Source: Escherichia coli
GTDB taxonomy: Bacteria; Pseudomonadota; Gammaproteobacteria; Enterobacterales; Enterobacteriaceae
Direction: 5' to 3' (one strand)
Assembly: GCF_030013205.1 (NCBI RefSeq)
Contig: NZ_CP122648.1
Length of the DNA: 64,000 nucleotides
How positions within the stretch are numbered: the stretch's first letter is position 1; every line of letters starts with the position of its first letter. Both the position numbers and the translations under genes were made by a program. A model generated the notes under the pieces. It made no database searches. It was not told the origin of the DNA and saw only the letters and a program-made list of their open reading frames with translations. Shown here one piece after another: positions 14,625 to 64,000 of this stretch.

Positions 14625-15305
14625 TGTGCACAGAAAACCCCCAGCTAGGCTGGGGGTTCCGGAAAGCTTTCAGCTTTGAGCCAGTTATTAAAACCCCTTT
14701 TGATTTGTTAAAACACCTTGCGGTCTGGCAACTGCAAGTGTCAAACAAGAAATCAAAAGGGGGTCCCAATGGGGAACGAAAAGAGCTTAGCGCACACCCG
14801 ATGGAACTGTAAATATCACATGGTTTTTGCGCCAAAATACCGAAGACAGGTGTTCTACAGAGAGAAGCGTAGAGCAATAGGCAGTATTTTGAGAAAGCTG
14901 TGTGAGTGGAAAAGCGTACGGATTCTGGAAGCTGAATGCTGTGCAGATCATATCCATATGCTTGTGGAGATCCCGCCTAAAATGAGCGTATCCGGGTTTA
15001 TGGGATATCTGAAAGGGAAAAGCAGTCTGATGCTTTACGAGCAGTTTGGTGATTTGAAATTCAAATACAGGAACAGGGAGTTCTGGTGCAGAGGGTACTA
15101 CGTCGATACAGTGGGTAAGAACACGGCGAAGATACAGGATTACATAAAGCACCAGCTTGAAGAGGATAAAATGGGAGAGCAGTTATCGATTCCCTATCCG
15201 GGCAGCCCGTTTACGGGCCGTAAGTAACGAAGTTGGATGCAAATGTCAGATCGTGTGCGCCTGTTAGGGCGCGGCTGGTAAGAGAGCCTTATAGGCGCAT
15301 TTGAA
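14625..15305 (+). mobile_element. IS200-family (IS200/IS605) insertion element; ends approximate
   Basis: Contains a 152-aa tnpA ORF nearly identical to Salmonella IS200 TnpA as remembered; perfect hairpin cccccag-ctagg-ctggggg at about 14640-14658 upstream of tnpA; K-12 has no such element between ompL and yihN. Exact left and right ends not determinable without an empty-site comparison. Confidence 0.7.
14769..15227 (+). CDS. tnpA: IS200 transposase TnpA (HUH Y1 transposase)
   Basis: MGNEKSLAHTRWNCKYHMVFAPKYRRQVFY...HIHMLVEIPPK...; HUH motif (HIH) and the catalytic-Tyr region recognised; RBS aaagggg upstream. Confidence 0.9.
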   Translation: MGNEKSLAHTRWNCKYHMVFAPKYRRQVFYREKRRAIGSILRKLCEWKSVRILEAECCADHIHMLVEIPPKMSVSGFMGYLKGKSSLMLYEQFGDLKFKYRNREFWCRGYYVDTVGKNTAKIQDYIKHQLEEDKMGEQLSIPYPGSPFTGRK

Positions 15306-20439: not shown

Positions 20440-20587
20440 AACTTTGCCTCAGGCATTAGAAATAGCGCGTTATTGTACACGGATTAATCGCACTACAAAA
20501 CAGGATCACAAACATCCTCCGCAAACAAGTATTGCAGAGTCCCTTTGTGATCGCTTTCACGGAGCATAAAAAGGGTTATCCAAAGGT

Positions 20588-20640
20588 CATTGCACCAATA
20601 TGGTGCTTAATGTTTCCATTGAAGCACTATATTGGTGCAA
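20588..20640 (+). promoter_or_regulatory. Tandem NtrC (NRI) binding sites / enhancer upstream of glnA
   Basis: tgcaccaatatggtgc (20591-20606) and gcactatattggtgc (20624-20638), both fitting the NtrC TGCACC-N5-GGTGCA dyad. Confidence 0.65.
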
Positions 20641-20811: not shown

Positions 20812-22221
20812 ATGTCCGCTGAACACGTACTGACGATGCTGAACGAGCACGAAGTGAAGTTTGTTGATTTGCGCTTCACCGATACCAAAGGTAAAGAACA
20901 GCACGTCACTATCCCTGCTCATCAGGTGAATGCTGAATTCTTCGAAGAAGGCAAAATGTTTGACGGCTCCTCGATTGGCGGCTGGAAAGGCATTAACGAA
21001 TCCGACATGGTGCTGATGCCAGACGCATCCACCGCAGTGATTGATCCGTTCTTCGCCGATTCTACCCTGATTATCCGTTGCGACATCCTTGAACCTGGTA
21101 CCCTGCAAGGCTATGACCGTGACCCGCGCTCCATCGCGAAGCGCGCTGAAGATTACCTGCGTTCCACTGGCATTGCCGACACCGTACTGTTCGGGCCAGA
21201 ACCTGAATTCTTCCTGTTCGATGACATCCGTTTCGGATCTTCTATCTCCGGTTCCCACGTTGCTATCGACGATATCGAAGGCGCATGGAACTCCTCCACC
21301 CAATATGAAGGTGGTAACAAAGGTCACCGTCCGGCAGTGAAAGGCGGTTACTTCCCGGTTCCGCCGGTAGACTCTGCTCAGGATATTCGTTCTGAAATGT
21401 GTCTGGTGATGGAACAGATGGGTCTGGTGGTTGAAGCCCATCACCACGAAGTAGCGACTGCTGGTCAGAACGAAGTGGCTACCCGCTTCAATACCATGAC
21501 CAAAAAAGCTGACGAAATTCAGATCTACAAATATGTTGTGCACAACGTAGCGCACCGCTTCGGTAAAACCGCGACCTTTATGCCAAAACCGATGTTCGGT
21601 GATAACGGCTCCGGTATGCACTGCCACATGTCGCTGTCTAAAAACGGCGTCAACCTGTTCGCAGGCGACAAATACGCAGGTCTGTCTGAGCAGGCGCTGT
21701 ACTATATTGGCGGCGTAATCAAACACGCGAAAGCGATTAATGCCCTGGCAAACCCGACCACCAACTCTTACAAGCGTCTGGTCCCGGGCTACGAAGCACC
21801 GGTAATGCTGGCTTACTCTGCACGCAACCGTTCTGCGTCTATCCGTATTCCGGTGGTTTCTTCTCCGAAAGCACGTCGTATCGAAGTACGTTTCCCGGAT
21901 CCGGCGGCTAACCCGTACCTGTGCTTTGCTGCCCTGCTGATGGCCGGTCTTGATGGTATCAAGAACAAGATCCATCCGGGCGAAGCCATGGACAAAAACC
22001 TGTATGACCTGCCGCCGGAAGAAGCGAAAGAGATCCCACAGGTTGCTGGTTCTCTGGAAGAAGCACTGAACGAACTGGATCTGGACCGCGAGTTCCTGAA
22101 AGCCGGTGGCGTGTTCACTGATGAAGCGATCGATGCGTACATCGCTCTGCGTCGCGAAGAAGATGACCGCGTGCGTATGACTCCGCATCCGGTAGAGTTT
22201 GAGCTGTACTACAGCGTCTAA
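20812..22221 (+). CDS. glnA: Glutamine synthetase
   Basis: 469-aa [34 protein letters not shown]...; adenylylation site region NLYDLP present. Confidence 0.97.
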
Positions 22222-27348: not shown

Positions 27349-27413
27349 AATGGTTCGTCTTTTAGCCGTTTTATTCAGTATAGATTTGCGGCGGAATCTA
27401 ACAGAAAGCAAGC

Positions 27414-27659
27414 AAAGAAAAAAGGCGACAGATTACTCTGTCGCCTTTTTTCCTGACTCATAACCCTTAACGGGTCTTACAATCCTTGCAGGCCGCCAAC
27501 ACACCCTGTTTTTCCATTAGCCGGAACAATCCGTGTTGATTCCATTTCCGTTTAATTACGTCTCCGGACGTTTGTCTTCCTGACAATCCTCTGTCTTCGC
27601 CTCCTGGCGCTCCTGACCCTCATCCTGAGTCATTGTTCCTGTTAGCGTCCTCGCTCTAT
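27414..27659 (-). ncRNA. csrC: CsrC small RNA (CsrA-sequestering)
   Basis: Minus strand reads ATAGAGCGAGGACGCTAACAGGAACAATGACTCAGGATGAGGGTCAGGAGCGCCAGGAGG..., with many GGA motifs, ending in the hairpin ggcgacagagtaatctgtcgcc + U-run; matches CsrC as remembered and its known yihA-yihI intergenic location. Confidence 0.85.
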
Positions 27660-28685: not shown

Positions 28686-28796
28686 AATAAAAAACGCCCC
28701 AGTCATTACTGACTGGGGCGGCTAAAATATTCAGCCAAATCCGATTACGTGAAGTAAAAGGTCTGAAAGATAGAACATCTTACCTCTGTACCCTAC
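28686..28796 (-). ncRNA. spf: Spot 42 small RNA
   Basis: Minus strand reads GTAGGGTACAGAGGTAAGATGTTCTATCTTTCAGACC...GCCGCCCCAGTCAGTAATGACTGGGGCGTTTTTTATTGGGCG, matching Spot 42 including its terminator; immediately 3' of polA as in K-12. Confidence 0.9.
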
Positions 28797-28943
28797 GCGA
28801 CTAACTTTACTCTTTTTTGTTCAGTTCAGAAAGCATTTTTTGTAATTTTTTTTCAGTTGTTGCATAGGAATTTCTAATAGCCATCACAAAACGTGACAGC
28901 TTATGTTGCTTACTTACGAAAAAAGGGCATGTTCAGGCGAATC

Positions 28944-37890: not shown

Positions 37891-38010
37891 ATGCCTGGCA
37901 GTTCCCTACTCTCGCATGGGGAGACCCCACACTACCATCGGCGCTACGGCGTTTCACTTCTGAGTTCGGCATGGGGTCAGGTGGGACCACCGCGCTAAGG
38001 CCGCCAGGCA
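37891..38010 (-). rRNA. rrfA: 5S ribosomal RNA
   Basis: Minus strand reads TGCCTGGCGGCC...GGAACTGCCAGGCAT over 120 nt, matching E. coli 5S rRNA with at most one mismatch to my recollection. Confidence 0.95.
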
Positions 38011-38102
38011 AATTCTGTTTCATCAGACCGCTTCTGCGTTCTGATTTAATCTGTATCAGGCTGAAAATCTTCTCTCATCCGCCAAAACATCTTCGGCGTT
38101 GT

Positions 38103-41007
<2,905 letters not shown>

Positions 41008-41190
41008 TCACAACCCGAAGATGTTTCTTTCGATTCATCATCGTGTTGCGAAAATTTGAGAGACTCACGAACAACTTTCGTTGTTCAGTGTTTCAATTTT
41101 CAGCTTGATCCAGATTTTTAAAGAGCAAAACTTCGCAGTGAACCTTTGCAGGTACACTCTGAAGTATTTTTTATTTAATCACTACAGAGA

Positions 41191-41266
41191 TGGTGGAGCT
41201 ATGCGGGATCGAACCGCAGACCTCCTGCGTGCAAAGCAGGCGCTCTCCCAGCTGAGCTATAGCCCC
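41191..41266 (-). tRNA. alaT: tRNA-Ala (anticodon UGC), rRNA spacer
   Basis: Minus strand reads GGGGCTATAGCTCAGCTGGGAGAGCGCCTGCTTTGCACGCAGGAGGTCTGCGGTTCGATCCCGCATAGCTCCACCA. Confidence 0.95.
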
Positions 41267-41308
41267 ATAACATGTAGTTAAAACCTCTTCAAATTTGCCG
41301 TGCAAATT

Positions 41309-41385
<77 letters not shown>

Positions 41386-41453
41386 GTAGAGGTTTTACTG
41401 CTCATTTTCATCAGACAATCTGTGTGAGCACTTCAAAGAACGCTTCTTTAAGG

Positions 41454-42995
<1,542 letters not shown>

Positions 42996-56470: not shown

Positions 56471-58713
<2,243 letters not shown>

Positions 58714-58726
58714 TTCCGGTCTCCTG

Positions 58727-59482
58727 TCAGAACTTATAACCACGATGCAACGCCACAACCCCTGCCGTCAGATTGTAGTAGTCGACACTTTCGAATCCGG
58801 CATCCTGCATCATGGCTTTCAGGGTATCCTGATCGGGATGCATACGGATGGATTCTGCCAGATAACGATAGCTGTCGGCGTCGTTCGCGACCAGTGAGCC
58901 AATACGCGGCAGCACATGGAAGGAGTATGCATCATAGGCTTTGCTCAGCGGCTCGATAATCGGCTTCGAGAACTCAAGCACCAGCAGGCGGCCGCCGGGT
59001 TTCAGCACGCGATACATTGAACGCAGTGCTTTATCTTTGTCGGTGACGTTACGCAGACCAAACGAAATGGTGATGCAATCAAAGGTGTTATCCGGGAACG
59101 GCAGCGCCTCAGCGTTCGCTTGAACATACTCAACGTTGCCAATCACACCGATATTACGCAGCTTCTCGCGTCCCATTTTGAGCATGGATTCATTGATATC
59201 AGCAAGGACCACTTTGCCAGTTTCTCCGACCAGGCGGGAGAATTTCGCTGTCAGGTCGCCGGTGCCACCAGCCAGATCCAGCACGGTCTGCCCGCGGCGT
59301 ACGCCGCTGCAATCAATCGTGAATCGCTTCCACAAACGATGAATACCGAATGACATCAAATCATTCATGACATCGTATTTTGATGCCACGGAATGGAAAA
59401 CGTGAGCGACCATATCCGCTTTTTGTTCCTTCGCGACGGTCTGAAAACCAAAGTGCGTCGTTTCTTGTGACTTATCCACCAT
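58727..59482 (-). CDS. ubiE: Ubiquinone/menaquinone C-methyltransferase
   Basis: 251-aa ORF; SAM-binding motif [10 protein letters not shown]. Confidence 0.95.
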
Positions 59483-61144: not shown

Positions 61145-61906
61145 TTACAGCAGACGACGCGCCGCTTCCACCACGATTTTCACCGCTTGGCTTTCAGTTT
61201 GTTTCATCGTCTCAGCATTCGGGATCTCTTGCTGGGTGCGGTTAACGATAACGCCCGCCACCATACCCGCACGCAGGCCCTGACTTGCACACATGGTCAG
61301 CAGGGTTGCAGATTCCATTTCATAGTTCATTACGCCCATCGCCTGCCACTCTTCCATAGAACCTTTAAAGTGACGAACTACGCGACCAGAGTAAGTATCG
61401 TAACGTTCCTGACCTGGGTAGAAGGTATCAGAAGAAGCCGTCACGCCAACGTGAGTCGTCGCGCCAATGGATTTCGCCGCTTCAACCAGAGCAGTCGTAC
61501 ATTCGAAATCAGCGACAGCCGGGAATTCCAGCGGTGCGAAGTGCAAGCTCGCGCCATCCAGACGAACAGACGCCGTGGTAACCAGAACATCGCCAACATT
61601 AATATGCGGCTGAATAGCGCCCGTTGTACCGATACGCAGGAAGGTGCGAATGCCCAGCTGTGCCAGCTCTTCAACAGCAATAGAGGTAGACGGGCCGCCG
61701 ATACCGGTAGAGCAGACGATAACAGGTTTACCATCCAGCTCTGCACGCCAGGTGGTGAATTCGCGGTGAGATGCCAGCTTAACCGGCTTATCCATCAGCG
61801 CGGCGATCTTTTCCACACGATCCGGGTCGCCAGGGACGATGGCAAGCGTAGCCCCTTGTAAATCGTTTTTAGTGAGGCCGAGATGAAAAACATCAGACTT
61901 GGACAT
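61145..61906 (-). CDS. udp: Uridine phosphorylase
   Basis: ORF 61145..61912 trimmed to [31 protein letters not shown]; 253 aa. Confidence 0.95.
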
Positions 61907-61978
61907 ATACAACTCCTCTGTGAATCGGTTTAGTCAGAAGAAGCAAAAAGACACTTTACCGAAGGGTTTAACATTTTT

Positions 61979-62047
61979 TCGTGATGCTCATCACCATGAC
62001 GCAAATGCGTTGCATAAATTTACCCATCAAAAGTGATGCAAATCACA
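61979..62047 (-). promoter_or_regulatory. udp promoter region with tandem CRP sites (CytR-type architecture)
   Basis: Two CRP-like dyads, tcGTGATgctcaTCACc (61979-61996) and aaGTGATgcaaaTCACAt (62031-62047), centres about 52 bp apart, matching the known -41.5/-93.5 arrangement of the udp promoter. Confidence 0.55.
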
Positions 62048-62167
62048 TAAATCACTCTTCATTCTGCAGGACTGCATAAAAGATGAGCCGATTCAGGCAA
62101 TGTGATTTGTTGCATGCTGACTATAGTTAACATTGCGCAACATTTTTATAAGGGTACGGAGAATACC

Positions 62168-62980
62168 ATGGCAACAACACAACAATCTGGATTTGCACCT
62201 GTTGCATCGCCTCTCGCTTCGACCATCGTTCAGACCCCGGACGACGCGATTGCGGCGGGCTTCACCTCTATCCCCTCACAAGGGGATAACATGCCTGCTT
62301 ACCATGCCAGACCAAAGCAGAGCGATGGCCCACTGCCAGTGGTCATTGTAGTGCAGGAAATTTTTGGCGTGCATGAACATATCCGCGACATTTGTCGCCG
62401 TCTGGCGCTGGAGGGGTATCTGGCTATCGCACCTGAACTTTACTTCCGCGAAGGCGATCCGAATGATTTTGCCGATATCCCCACGTTGCTTAGCGGTCTG
62501 GTAGCAAAAGTGCCTGACTCGCAGGTGCTGGCCGATCTCGATCATGTCGCCAGTTGGGCTTCCCGCAACGGCGGCGATGTTCATCGTTTAATGATCACCG
62601 GATTCTGCTGGGGTGGACGTATCACCTGGCTGTATGCTGCGCATAACCCGCAACTGAAAGCGGCGGTGGCATGGTACGGCAAACTGACGGGCGATAAGTC
62701 GCTGAATTCACCGAAACAACCTGTTGATATCGCAACCGATCTTAACGCGCCGGTTCTCGGCTTATATGGCGGTCAGGATAACAGCATTCCGCAGGAGAGC
62801 GTTGAAACCATGCGCCAGGCGCTGCGGGCTGCTAATGCGAAAGCAGAGATTATCGTCTACCCGGATGCCGGGCATGCATTCAACGCCGATTATCGCCCGA
62901 GCTATCATGCCGAATCTGCGAAAGATGGCTGGCAGCGAATGCTGGAGTGGTTTAAGCAGTATGGAGGGAAGCGGAGTTAG
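62168..62980 (+). CDS. ysgA: Dienelactone hydrolase-family protein (carboxymethylenebutenolidase homologue)
   Basis: ORF 62102..62980 trimmed to MATTQQSGFAPVASPLAS (RBS ggag upstream); alpha/beta hydrolase with nucleophile elbow GFCWGG; 271 aa. Confidence 0.9.
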   Translation: MATTQQSGFAPVASPLASTIVQTPDDAIAAGFTSIPSQGDNMPAYHARPKQSDGPLPVVIVVQEIFGVHEHIRDICRRLALEGYLAIAPELYFREGDPNDFADIPTLLSGLVAKVPDSQVLADLDHVASWASRNGGDVHRLMITGFCWGGRITWLYAAHNPQLKAAVAWYGKLTGDKSLNSPKQPVDIATDLNAPVLGLYGGQDNSIPQESVETMRQALRAANAKAEIIVYPDAGHAFNADYRPSYHAESAKDGWQRMLEWFKQYGGKRS

Positions 62981-63371
62981 TTTCCTCTTAGTCTATATTT
63001 GAGATGGTGAGTGAACGAGTGCGTTTTGCTGCCATCTCTGTCCCCCAAAAAATAATCAGTATGAATTGATTGGAGAGCACGACTCCGCTATTTGACCTTA
63101 AGAAAGTCGGCAAGTAATAGTCATAAGTGAGTCTCTTCACTGGCAGACACCTTAGAGATTTACCATCAACTCCCATTCTCAAACAAACATTAATTATTAT
63201 CAACACATTCACATTAATTATAAATTATCTCAGACCTTCCTGATAAAAAGATATTAAAGTGAAACATTTTGTTTTTCACATTTTAGTTCATCCCTTTTAG
63301 GCGTAAATAAAGGTAAAAAATAACAATACTATTTTTCTTTCACAAAAGAATTAACAAAAGGTTTTTCAAGG

Positions 63372-64000
63372 ATGAGTGATATTATTTACCTGAACATAAC
63401 CGGAGAACAACAAGGATGTATTTCCTCTCGTTGTGGAACGAGCGCATCAATAGGTAATCGCTGGCAGATTGGCCATGAAGATGAAATCTTCGCGTTCTCG
63501 CTCTCTAATAGTATTACGAATACAGGCAAAGGGTCACAATTGCATGGCCTTAGTTTCTGTAAATTGATTGACAAAAGCTCCCCGTTACTTATTAACGCTA
63601 TTAACAATAACGAGCAGTTGTTCATGGAGTTTGACTTCTATCGGATCAATAGATTTGGTCGATGGGAGAAATATTACAACATTCAACTTCGCGGCGCGCT
63701 CTTATCAGCAATCAATCACCTGTTTACTGAGAACAATCTGGATACAGAAACCATCACTGTCAGTTATGAATATATACTCTCCAGGCATCTGATTGCTAAT
63801 ACTGAATTTAGTTATTTGGCATTTCCCGATAACTACAACCGTCTGTTTATACCACGGCCAAAAACTAAAGATGATAATGGCCTCAAAACACTCAATAGTA
63901 AAGCGGTTGGCAGACTGCTTGCTGCTGGCGGCATATACAATGGGAATATCGAAGGATTCAGGGAAACAGCAAACAAGTTGGGAGGAGATGCACCTGCTGG
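63372..64000 (+). CDS. Hcp-like (type VI secretion tube protein family) ORF with C-terminal extension; 3' end beyond the window
   Basis: ATG at 63372, open to the window end (at least 209 codons, checked codon by codon). N-terminus MSDIIYLNITGEQQGCISSRCGTSASIGNRWQIGHEDE... and internal LSFCKLIDKSSPLLINAINNNEQLFMEFDFYRINRFGRWEKYY match Hcp hallmarks (GHEDE, KxIDKSSPxL, FxFYRIN). An Hcp domain is normally complete by about 150-160 aa; this ORF continues (…IPRPKTKDDNGLKTLNSKAVGRLLAAGGIYNGNIEGFRETANKLGGDAPA…). Low-GC relative to flanking core genes. Not in the ORF track because no stop lies in the window. Confidence 0.7.
   Translation, partial: MSDIIYLNITGEQQGCISSRCGTSASIGNRWQIGHEDEIFAFSLSNSITNTGKGSQLHGLSFCKLIDKSSPLLINAINNNEQLFMEFDFYRINRFGRWEKYYNIQLRGALLSAINHLFTENNLDTETITVSYEYILSRHLIANTEFSYLAFPDNYNRLFIPRPKTKDDNGLKTLNSKAVGRLLAAGGIYNGNIEGFRETANKLGGDAPA

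What the first reader, a model, noticed from the sequence alone, without database searches (positions are those of the whole stretch)
61979..62047. udp promoter with tandem CRP dyads 52 bp apart
Two GTGAT-N6-TCAC-type dyads with the spacing characteristic of CytR-regulated promoters (CRP at -41.5 and -93.5, CytR bridging between them) lie in the udp-ysgA divergent spacer.
Basis: partly seen in the sequence, partly recalled or inferred. Interest (0 to 1): 0.2.

Follow-up and report, generated by a model that had tools for sequence, protein, structure and literature searches.

The report
Known udp promoter: CRP–CytR–CRP module

Summary
Confirmed, and already known. The window is E. coli; udp lies on the minus strand (ATG at 61906) and ysgA diverges from 62168. 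Two CRP dyads sit at 61980-61995 and 62032-62047, with centres exactly 52 bp apart. A CRP matrix built from independent ChIP-seq sites ranks them 3rd and 1st of about 64,000 window positions. A pair that strong at that spacing is expected about 5e-6 times per window by chance. Between them, the window matches exactly the published 32-bp udp CytR operator. The 261-bp spacer differs from K-12 MG1655 at three bases, none in a CRP pentamer or the operator. A fully conserved TAAAGT -10 hexamer starts 29.5 bp from the proximal centre, which puts the sites at -41.5 and -93.5. A published RNA-seq start cluster ends 1 nt from that predicted +1. In 78 of 80 other Enterobacterales udp loci the best CRP pair is 52-53 bp apart although the intervening sequence diverges. 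CRP ChIP-seq in ETEC H10407 reports both sites. Mechanism, from the K-12 literature: CRP at -41.5 activates; CytR bridging both CRPs represses; cytidine induces. The only mildly new hint is possible shared use of the distal site by ysgA.

The parts
61145..61906 (-). udp coding sequence for uridine phosphorylase. The ATG is at 61906-61904 and the stop codon is included.
   Evidence: The ORF is. It is annotated as udp in the 100%-identical strain K_EC180 and in K-12.
61913..61918 (-). Shine-Dalgarno sequence GAGGAG of udp, 6 nt upstream of the ATG.
   Evidence: Read directly from the sequence. This purine-rich block is moderately conserved in the anchored alignment.
61946..61951 (-). udp transcription start region. 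Position 61946 is the +1 implied by the -10 hexamer. Positions 61947-61951 are the published start cluster, mapped from K-12.
   Evidence: PMC4681348 Table S2 lists FWD_(III)-4014409, spanning 4014409-4014413, and marks it as overlapping RegulonDB. Converting U00096.2 to U00096.3 adds 1977 bp; that offset is from my own knowledge. TTTG at 61947-61944 is 77-99% conserved.
61953..61958 (-). -10 hexamer TAAAGT of the udp promoter. No -35 element is recognisable, as expected for an activator-dependent class II promoter.
   Evidence: Five of its six positions are 99-100% conserved across 75 Enterobacterales promoters. Its first base lies 29.5 bp from the proximal CRP centre. The consensus sigma-70 scan found no complete promoter in the spacer.
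61980..61995 (.). Proximal CRP site (CRP-1), GGTGATGAGCATCACG in udp orientation, centre 61987.5, about -41.5. The 22-bp site is 61977-61998. This is the activating site.
   Evidence: It scores 13.6 bits and ranks 3rd in the window. The K-12 allele differs only in the N6 spacer (T instead of C) and scores 13.1 bits. The site is listed under the ysgA/udp CRP ChIP-seq peak in ETEC H10407. Its pentamers are 93-100% conserved.
61992..62023 (-). CytR operator (CytO). The left octamer TATGCAAC is at 62016-62009, the 3-bp spacer GCA at 62008-62006, and the right octamer TTTGCGTC at 62005-61998.
   Evidence: It matches exactly the 32-bp natural udp operator used in the NMR study 10.1101/2021.02.28.433298. 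The octamers match the SELEX consensus AATGCAAC/GTTGCATT at 7 of 8 and 5 of 8 positions. ATGCAA and the TTT of the right half are 88-97% conserved.
62032..62047 (.). Distal CRP site (CRP-2), TGTGATTTGCATCACT in udp orientation, centre 62039.5, about -93.5. The 22-bp site is 62029-62050. It is the stronger CRP site and the second anchor of the CRP-CytR-CRP repression complex.
   Evidence: It scores 16.7 bits and ranks 1st in the window. It is identical to K-12. A one-base variant is listed under the ysgA/udp ChIP-seq peak in H10407. TGTGA and TCAC are 89-100% conserved.
62168..62980 (+). ysgA, a dienelactone hydrolase family gene. It is the divergent neighbour and bounds the spacer.
   Evidence: Pfam DLH, E 1e-77; annotation.

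Best explanation
The region is the E. coli udp promoter (udpP), a CytR-regulon promoter dependent on cAMP-CRP.

Shown here:
- Two strong CRP dyads lie exactly 52 bp apart.
- The published udp CytR operator lies between them and abuts the proximal site.
- A conserved TAAAGT -10 hexamer with no -35 element places the dyads at about -41.5 and -93.5.

Inferred from the K-12 literature:
- When cAMP is high, CRP at -41.5 recruits RNA polymerase as a class II activator and turns udp on.
- CytR binds its weak operator and contacts both flanking CRP dimers. The resulting CRP-CytR-CRP complex masks CRP's activating surface. This is anti-activation, and it represses udp.
- Cytidine binding to CytR breaks the CytR-CRP cooperativity, so CRP activation resumes.

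The 52-bp spacing is five helical turns. It keeps both CRP dimers on one face of the DNA at the distance CytR can bridge.
For: - Position and strength of the dyads.
- Identity with K-12 udpP apart from 3 SNPs outside the CRP pentamers and the operator.
- Exact match to the published CytR operator.
- CRP ChIP-seq peak with both sites in ETEC H10407 (PMC4287617).
- PMC3454398 states that udp belongs to the CytR regulon. It says one CRP site activates and two take part in repression. It also gives the CRP-to-CRP gap as a conserved 30-31 bp.
- My own footprint of 80 Enterobacterales udp loci: the best CRP pair is at 52 bp in 73 loci and at 53 bp in 5.
- Conservation peaks fall exactly on both CRP sites, on ATGCAA and TTT of CytO, and on TAAAGT. 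The N6 spacers and most inter-site bases vary.
- The published start cluster ends 1 nt from the predicted +1.
- cytR is present in 5425 of 5426 complete E. coli genomes, and so is this promoter module.
Against: Nothing contradicts it. The limits are:
- No binding or expression data exist for this particular strain.
- The published start cluster (61951-61947) would put the sites at -36.5 to -40.5 and -88.5 to -92.5, not exactly -41.5 and -93.5. It is a 'class III' leading-edge call of limited precision.
- The U00096.2-to-U00096.3 offset (1977 bp) comes from my memory.
- The C/T polymorphism in the proximal N6 spacer could slightly change CRP affinity. The matrix gives +0.5 bit.
- cytR and crp are not in the window.
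Confidence: 0.94

Rival explanations
1. The two dyads are chance matches to a loose palindrome and have no function.
For: Loose IUPAC matches (up to 2 mismatches) are as common in the window as in shuffled sequence, 25 against 25.5.
Against: With an independent matrix the dyads rank 1st and 3rd in the window. The chance expectation for such a pair at 52 bp is about 5e-6. The pentamers and the spacing are conserved across 78 of 80 Enterobacterales loci. CRP ChIP-seq occupancy is reported in H10407.
Confidence: 0.01
2. This is a tandem-CRP synergistic activation module without CytR. Both CRP dimers would contact RNA polymerase, and the spacing would be conserved for activation only.
For: CRP sites near -41.5 and -93.5 can activate synergistically at synthetic and some natural promoters (established knowledge). 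In distant Enterobacterales and Vibrionales the CytR boxes are not clearly conserved, whereas the CRP spacing is (PMC3454398; divergent inter-site sequences in Yersinia and Serratia).
Against: The window carries the exact CytR operator that was characterised biophysically. ATGCAA is conserved between the sites. PMC3454398 reports that only one CRP site acts in udp activation and that udp is experimentally CytR-regulated. cytR is near-universal in E. coli.
Confidence: 0.03
3. The distal dyad also, or instead, serves the divergent ysgA promoter as a class I-type CRP site about 94 bp upstream of a ysgA start. The module would then be bidirectional.
For: A conserved TATAGT (62122-62127, + strand) precedes ysgA. 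The distal CRP centre lies 94.5 bp from a +1 placed 7 nt after it. That distance is modal (32 loci, plus or minus 1 in 12 more), while the CRP-to-ysgA ATG distance varies from 104.5 to 140.5 (the printed values are 1 too small because the regex matched CTATAG). PhyloScan and ChIP-seq tables list ysgA beside udp for this CRP region.
Against: No ysgA start site was found in the data I could reach, and Table S2 shows no reverse-strand start in the spacer. The consensus scan found no ysgA promoter. The constant distance may only reflect few indels among close relatives. Listing ysgA in those tables follows from adjacency alone. One paper lists ysgA under the FNR regulon, not under CRP.
Confidence: 0.15
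4. The dyads are FNR sites rather than CRP sites, given that ysgA is listed in an FNR regulon compilation.
For: ysgA appears under FNR in the regulon table of PMC2710865. FNR and CRP recognise related palindromes (established knowledge).
Against: Both dyads have the CRP-type GTGA-N6-TCAC core, not the FNR-type TTGAT-N4-ATCAA. Both are reported under a CRP ChIP-seq peak. They score in the range of genuine CRP sites, whose median is 13.0 bits.
Confidence: 0.02

Closest known systems
E. coli K-12 udp promoter (udpP; Brikun et al. 1996, Gavigan et al. 1999, as cited in PMC3454398 and PMC9422980)
   Same: It sits between the same genes in a 261-bp spacer of the same length. The distal CRP site, the CytR operator, the -10 hexamer, the leader and the Shine-Dalgarno sequence are identical. 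The CRP spacing is the same 52 bp.
   Different: There are three substitutions relative to MG1655. In udp orientation they are: A for G just upstream of the distal site (62056); A for G between the distal site and CytO (62027); C for T in the N6 spacer of the proximal CRP site (61986). This exact allele is rare: 32 of 5425 records are at least 99% identical over the 116-bp core.
deoP2 promoter of the deoCABD operon
   Same: It has the CRP-CytR-CRP architecture, with CRP sites near -40 and -90 flanking a CytR site, and it works by anti-activation (PMC5957442; PMC3454398).
   Different: The CytR octamers have 0-bp spacing at deoP2 and 3-bp spacing at udp (10.1101/2021.02.28.433298). The operon and flanking sequence are different.
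Other CytR-regulon promoters (cdd, nupG, tsx-p2, ppiA, rpoH, cytR)
   Same: They are CRP-dependent promoters in which CytR binds next to or between CRP dimers (PMC3454398).
   Different: At nupG, tsx and cdd both CRP sites take part in activation, whereas at udp, deoP and cytR only one does. cytR has a single CRP site. The CytR half-site spacing ranges from 0 to 9 bp and the repeats are direct at cdd and cytR.

Membership tests
CytR-regulon promoter (CRP-CytR-CRP module) | Two CRP binding sites about 52-53 bp apart centre to centre, that is, on the same DNA face | tested here: met
   The centres are 61987.5 and 62039.5, 52 bp apart. The sites score 13.6 and 16.7 bits and rank 3rd and 1st in the window.
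CytR-regulon promoter (CRP-CytR-CRP module) | A CytR operator (octamer repeats related to GTTGCATT/AATGCAAC) between the CRP sites and within about 5 nt of at least one of them | tested here: met
   The window matches exactly the published 32-bp udp operator. The octamers are TATGCAAC (7 of 8) and TTTGCGTC (5 of 8), 3 bp apart. The right octamer ends at 61998, the edge of the 22-bp proximal CRP site. The proximity criterion is from PMC3454398.
CytR-regulon promoter (CRP-CytR-CRP module) | The proximal CRP site is centred near -41.5 from the transcription start (class II position) | tested here: met
   The conserved -10 hexamer TAAAGT starts 29.5 bp from the centre, which gives +1 at 61946. The published start cluster maps to 61951-61947, 1-5 nt away. 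The exact base is not verified, and no start-site data exist for this strain.
CytR-regulon promoter (CRP-CytR-CRP module) | CRP occupies the sites in vivo or in vitro | not testable with these tools
   Literature only. A CRP ChIP-seq peak with both sites is reported at ysgA/udp in ETEC H10407 (PMC4287617). There are no data for this strain.
CytR-regulon promoter (CRP-CytR-CRP module) | Repression depends on CytR and is relieved by cytidine; activation depends on cAMP-CRP | not testable with these tools
   This is reported for K-12 udp in papers cited by PMC3454398 and by 10.64898/2025.12.22.696124. The primary papers are not held.
CytR-regulon promoter (CRP-CytR-CRP module) | The genome encodes CytR | tested here: inconclusive
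   cytR is not in the window; in K-12 it lies about 107 kb from udp. It is present in 5425 of 5426 complete E. coli genomes, so it is almost certainly present here.
Orthologue of the K-12 udp promoter | Same flanking genes and collinear sequence with K-12 udpP | tested here: met
   Over the 319 aligned columns there are no internal gaps and only 3 substitutions. The alignment covers the whole 261-bp spacer between ysgA and udp.

The most novel reading that the evidence does not exclude
The distal CRP site may be used in both directions. As well as anchoring CytR repression of udp at -93.5, it lies about 94 bp (nine helical turns) upstream of a putative ysgA start defined by a conserved TATAGT. 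CRP, and possibly CytR, could therefore also control the uncharacterised dienelactone hydrolase gene ysgA from the same site.
Probability: 0.12. Interest if true: 0.25.

Novelty: already known. Interest (0 to 1): 0.06.

Why it matters
It matters little as a discovery. udpP is one of the classic model promoters for combinatorial control, in which an activator (CRP) is turned into a co-repressor by CytR. The value here is as a positive control: a reader working from raw sequence recovered a real, experimentally characterised module at the right coordinates. The check also shows that the module is intact in this swine-associated E. coli lineage despite three SNPs. It also shows that the 52-bp CRP spacing and the -10 geometry hold across Enterobacterales. 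The possible link to ysgA is a small, testable addition.

Tried and rejected
- The simple IUPAC count of TGTGA-N6-TCACA with up to 2 mismatches was not informative: 25 observed, 25.5 expected. I replaced it with a matrix built from ChIP-seq sites.
- The consensus sigma-70 and terminator scan of the spacer found nothing. This fits an activator-dependent promoter but gives no positive evidence.
- The primary udp papers are not in the held library: Brikun 1996 (PMC177846), Gavigan 1999 (JBC) and Pedersen & Valentin-Hansen 1997 (PMC1169813).
- Genome-wide start-site tables gave nothing for udp. They were cut before this locus, absent, or not held: Thomason 2015, Kim 2012, Ettwiller 2016, Conway 2014, Cho 2014 and Shigella M90T. 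Only PMC4681348 Table S2 gave a start cluster.
- One literature search with numeric terms returned irrelevant papers.
- The weak third CRP-like half-site at 62101-62116 scores 5.4 bits and ranks 86th. I did not count it as part of the module.
- The script printed distances 1 bp too small because the regex matched CTATAG rather than ACTATAG. I corrected this by hand.

Full report
**What is there.** The window is Escherichia coli. The 501 bases around the finding are 100% identical to several swine strains (K_EC180, O139:H1, ETEC) and are found in 5425 of 5426 complete E. coli genomes. udp (uridine phosphorylase) is on the minus strand at 61145-61906. ysgA (dienelactone hydrolase family, Pfam DLH, E 1e-77) starts at 62168 on the plus strand. 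The divergent spacer, 61907-62167, is 261 bp, the same length as in K-12 MG1655.

**The observation.** CGTGATGCTCATCACC is at 61980-61995 and AGTGATGCAAATCACA is at 62032-62047, with centres 52 bp apart.

A loose IUPAC count does not separate them from chance, with 25 matches against 25.5 expected. I therefore built a symmetric weight matrix from 105 CRP sites found by ChIP-seq in ETEC H10407 (PMC4287617 Table 1), leaving out the two udp sites.
- The distal dyad scores 16.7 bits and is the best of 63,985 window positions.
- The proximal dyad scores 13.6 bits and is third.
- The median of the training sites is 13.0 bits.
- The second-ranked hit lies about 258 bp upstream of the 469-aa ORF that I take to be glnA from its position. 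From memory, this fits the known glnAp1 CRP site.
- In 300 dinucleotide-preserving shuffles, one contained a pair of at least 10 bits spaced 51-54 bp.
- The expected number of pairs as strong as the observed one at 52 bp is about 5e-6 per window.

**Identity with the characterised promoter.** The spacer aligns with K-12 without gaps and with three substitutions. None falls in a CRP pentamer, the CytR operator, the -10 hexamer or the leader. One, C for T at 61986, lies in the N6 spacer of the proximal CRP site and changes its matrix score by +0.5 bit.

The natural udp CytR operator used for NMR work is 5'-GTAAATTTATGCAACGCATTTGCGTCATGGTG-3' (bioRxiv 10.1101/2021.02.28.433298). It matches the minus strand at 62023-61992 exactly.
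- The left octamer TATGCAAC (62016-62009) matches the SELEX consensus at 7 of 8 positions.
- The right octamer TTTGCGTC (62005-61998) matches at 5 of 8.
- The two are 3 bp apart, as that paper states for udp.
- The right octamer abuts the 22-bp proximal CRP site. This satisfies the proximity rule quoted in PMC3454398.

Haycocks et al. (PMC4287617) list one CRP ChIP-seq peak at ysgA/udp in H10407 with both sites.

**Position relative to the start.** No consensus sigma-70 promoter is found in the spacer, as expected for a CRP-dependent class II promoter. I made an ungapped alignment, anchored on the CRP pair, of 75 distinct Enterobacterales udp promoters. In it, the hexamer TAAAGT (61958-61953) is 99-100% conserved at five of six positions. 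Its first base is 29.5 bp from the proximal CRP centre. If the hexamer occupies -12 to -7, then +1 is 61946 and the CRP centres are at -41.5 and -93.5.

The one start-site table I could reach lists FWD_(III)-4014409, spanning 4014409-4014413 in U00096.2, and flags it as overlapping a RegulonDB start site (PMC4681348 Table S2). Adding the 1977-bp offset between U00096.2 and U00096.3 and applying the K-12-to-window map places it at 61951-61947. The offset is from my own knowledge; the U00096.3 record length is. The cluster's downstream edge is 1 nt from the predicted +1. It is a 'leading-edge' call of limited precision. The placement is consistent to within 1-5 nt, but the exact base is unverified.

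**Conservation elsewhere.** A scan of one genome per species with the Udp protein returned 80 loci from Escherichia to Yersinia, Serratia, Rahnella and Erwinia.
- The best-scoring CRP pair upstream of udp is 52 bp apart in 73 loci and 53 bp apart in 5 (Yersinia).
- The two remaining loci are exceptions: one has its best pair at 36 bp and one has no pair.
- The proximal centre lies 78.5-81.5 bp from the ATG in 66 loci.
- Information content peaks on TGTGA and TCAC of both sites, on ATGCAA and TTT of the CytR operator, on TAAAGT, and on TTTGCT at the start.
- The N6 spacers and most inter-site positions are free to vary.

This reproduces the statement in PMC3454398 that the udp CRP-to-CRP gap is a conserved 30-31 bp, while CytR boxes are clear only in close relatives of E. 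coli.

**Mechanism.** The anatomy above is shown here. The following steps are inferred from the literature on K-12. cAMP-CRP at the proximal site activates transcription. CytR binds cooperatively between the two CRP dimers and blocks activation. Cytidine releases CytR from the complex (PMC3454398; 10.64898/2025.12.22.696124). cytR is outside the window, about 107 kb away in K-12, but is present in 5425 of 5426 complete E. coli genomes. The 116-bp promoter core is present in the same number of genomes at 90% identity or more, although this exact allele is rare.

**Rivals.**
- Chance is excluded by the matrix statistics, the conservation and the ChIP-seq data.
- A CytR-free tandem-CRP activator is unlikely, given the exact operator match and the literature.
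- FNR sites are unlikely, because the cores are CRP-type.
- A bidirectional role for the distal site is not excluded. A conserved TATAGT (62122-62127) precedes ysgA. The distal CRP centre lies 94.5 bp from a +1 placed 7 nt after it. That distance is modal across loci even though the ysgA leader length varies (with values corrected by +1). No ysgA start site or expression data support it, and the constant distance may only reflect few indels among close relatives.

**Verdict.** This is the textbook udp CRP-CytR-CRP promoter, so it is already known and of low interest. Its main value is as a positive control for the scan.

Noticed in passing
window 62981-64000 (continues beyond the window end): A low-GC stretch (31-40% GC) lies between ysgA and metE and is absent from K-12. 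An ORF starting at 63372 runs off the window and matches T6SS Hcp (PF05638, E 9e-15). In the identical strain K_EC180 it is annotated as a 378-aa tssD, that is, an Hcp with a long C-terminal extension. Two small hypothetical ORFs follow it before metE. This looks like an orphan Hcp-toxin islet.
   Followed up: partly
window 20546-20561: The second-best CRP matrix hit in the window is TGTGATCGCTTTCACG (14.1 bits). It lies about 258 bp upstream of the 469-aa ORF at 20812-22221, which is glnA by position. It also falls inside an Rfam ES222 sRNA match on the opposite strand (20521-20628). It fits the known glnAp1 CRP site (from memory) and serves as an internal check of the matrix.
   Followed up: partly
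window 62073-62127: Conserved blocks lie between the distal CRP site and ysgA across Enterobacteriaceae. They are TGCATAAAAGAT (62073-62084), GGCAATGTG (62096-62104) and CTATAGT, which contains a TATAGT -10 candidate at 62122-62127. The distal CRP centre is about 94.5 bp from a putative ysgA +1, and this distance is modal across loci. No -35 element or mapped start is known.
   Followed up: partly
window 62099-62116: On the minus strand, CATGCAACAAATCACA joins a CytR-octamer-like CATGCAAC (7 of 8 to AATGCAAC) to a CRP half-site TGTGA, about 160 bp upstream of the udp start. As a whole CRP site it scores only 5.4 bits. The CACA of the half-site is conserved, but the octamer is not well conserved outside Escherichia.
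   Followed up: partly
window 14636-14759, 27406-27659, 28688-28806, 37893-42995, 58108-58359: Rfam gathering-score matches are as follows: STnc490; CsrC; Spot 42; a complete rrn operon (16S, two tRNAs, 23S, 5S, with a StyR-44 match in the spacer); and the 'Erse' sRNA, which overlaps the start of the ORF at 58108-58758. All fit the K-12 gene order around rrnA and ubiE-ubiB.
   Followed up: no
window 61986, 62027, 62056: The udp-ysgA spacer differs from K-12 MG1655 at these three positions. Over the 116-bp promoter core, only 32 of 5425 E. coli records are at least 99% identical to the window.
   Followed up: yes
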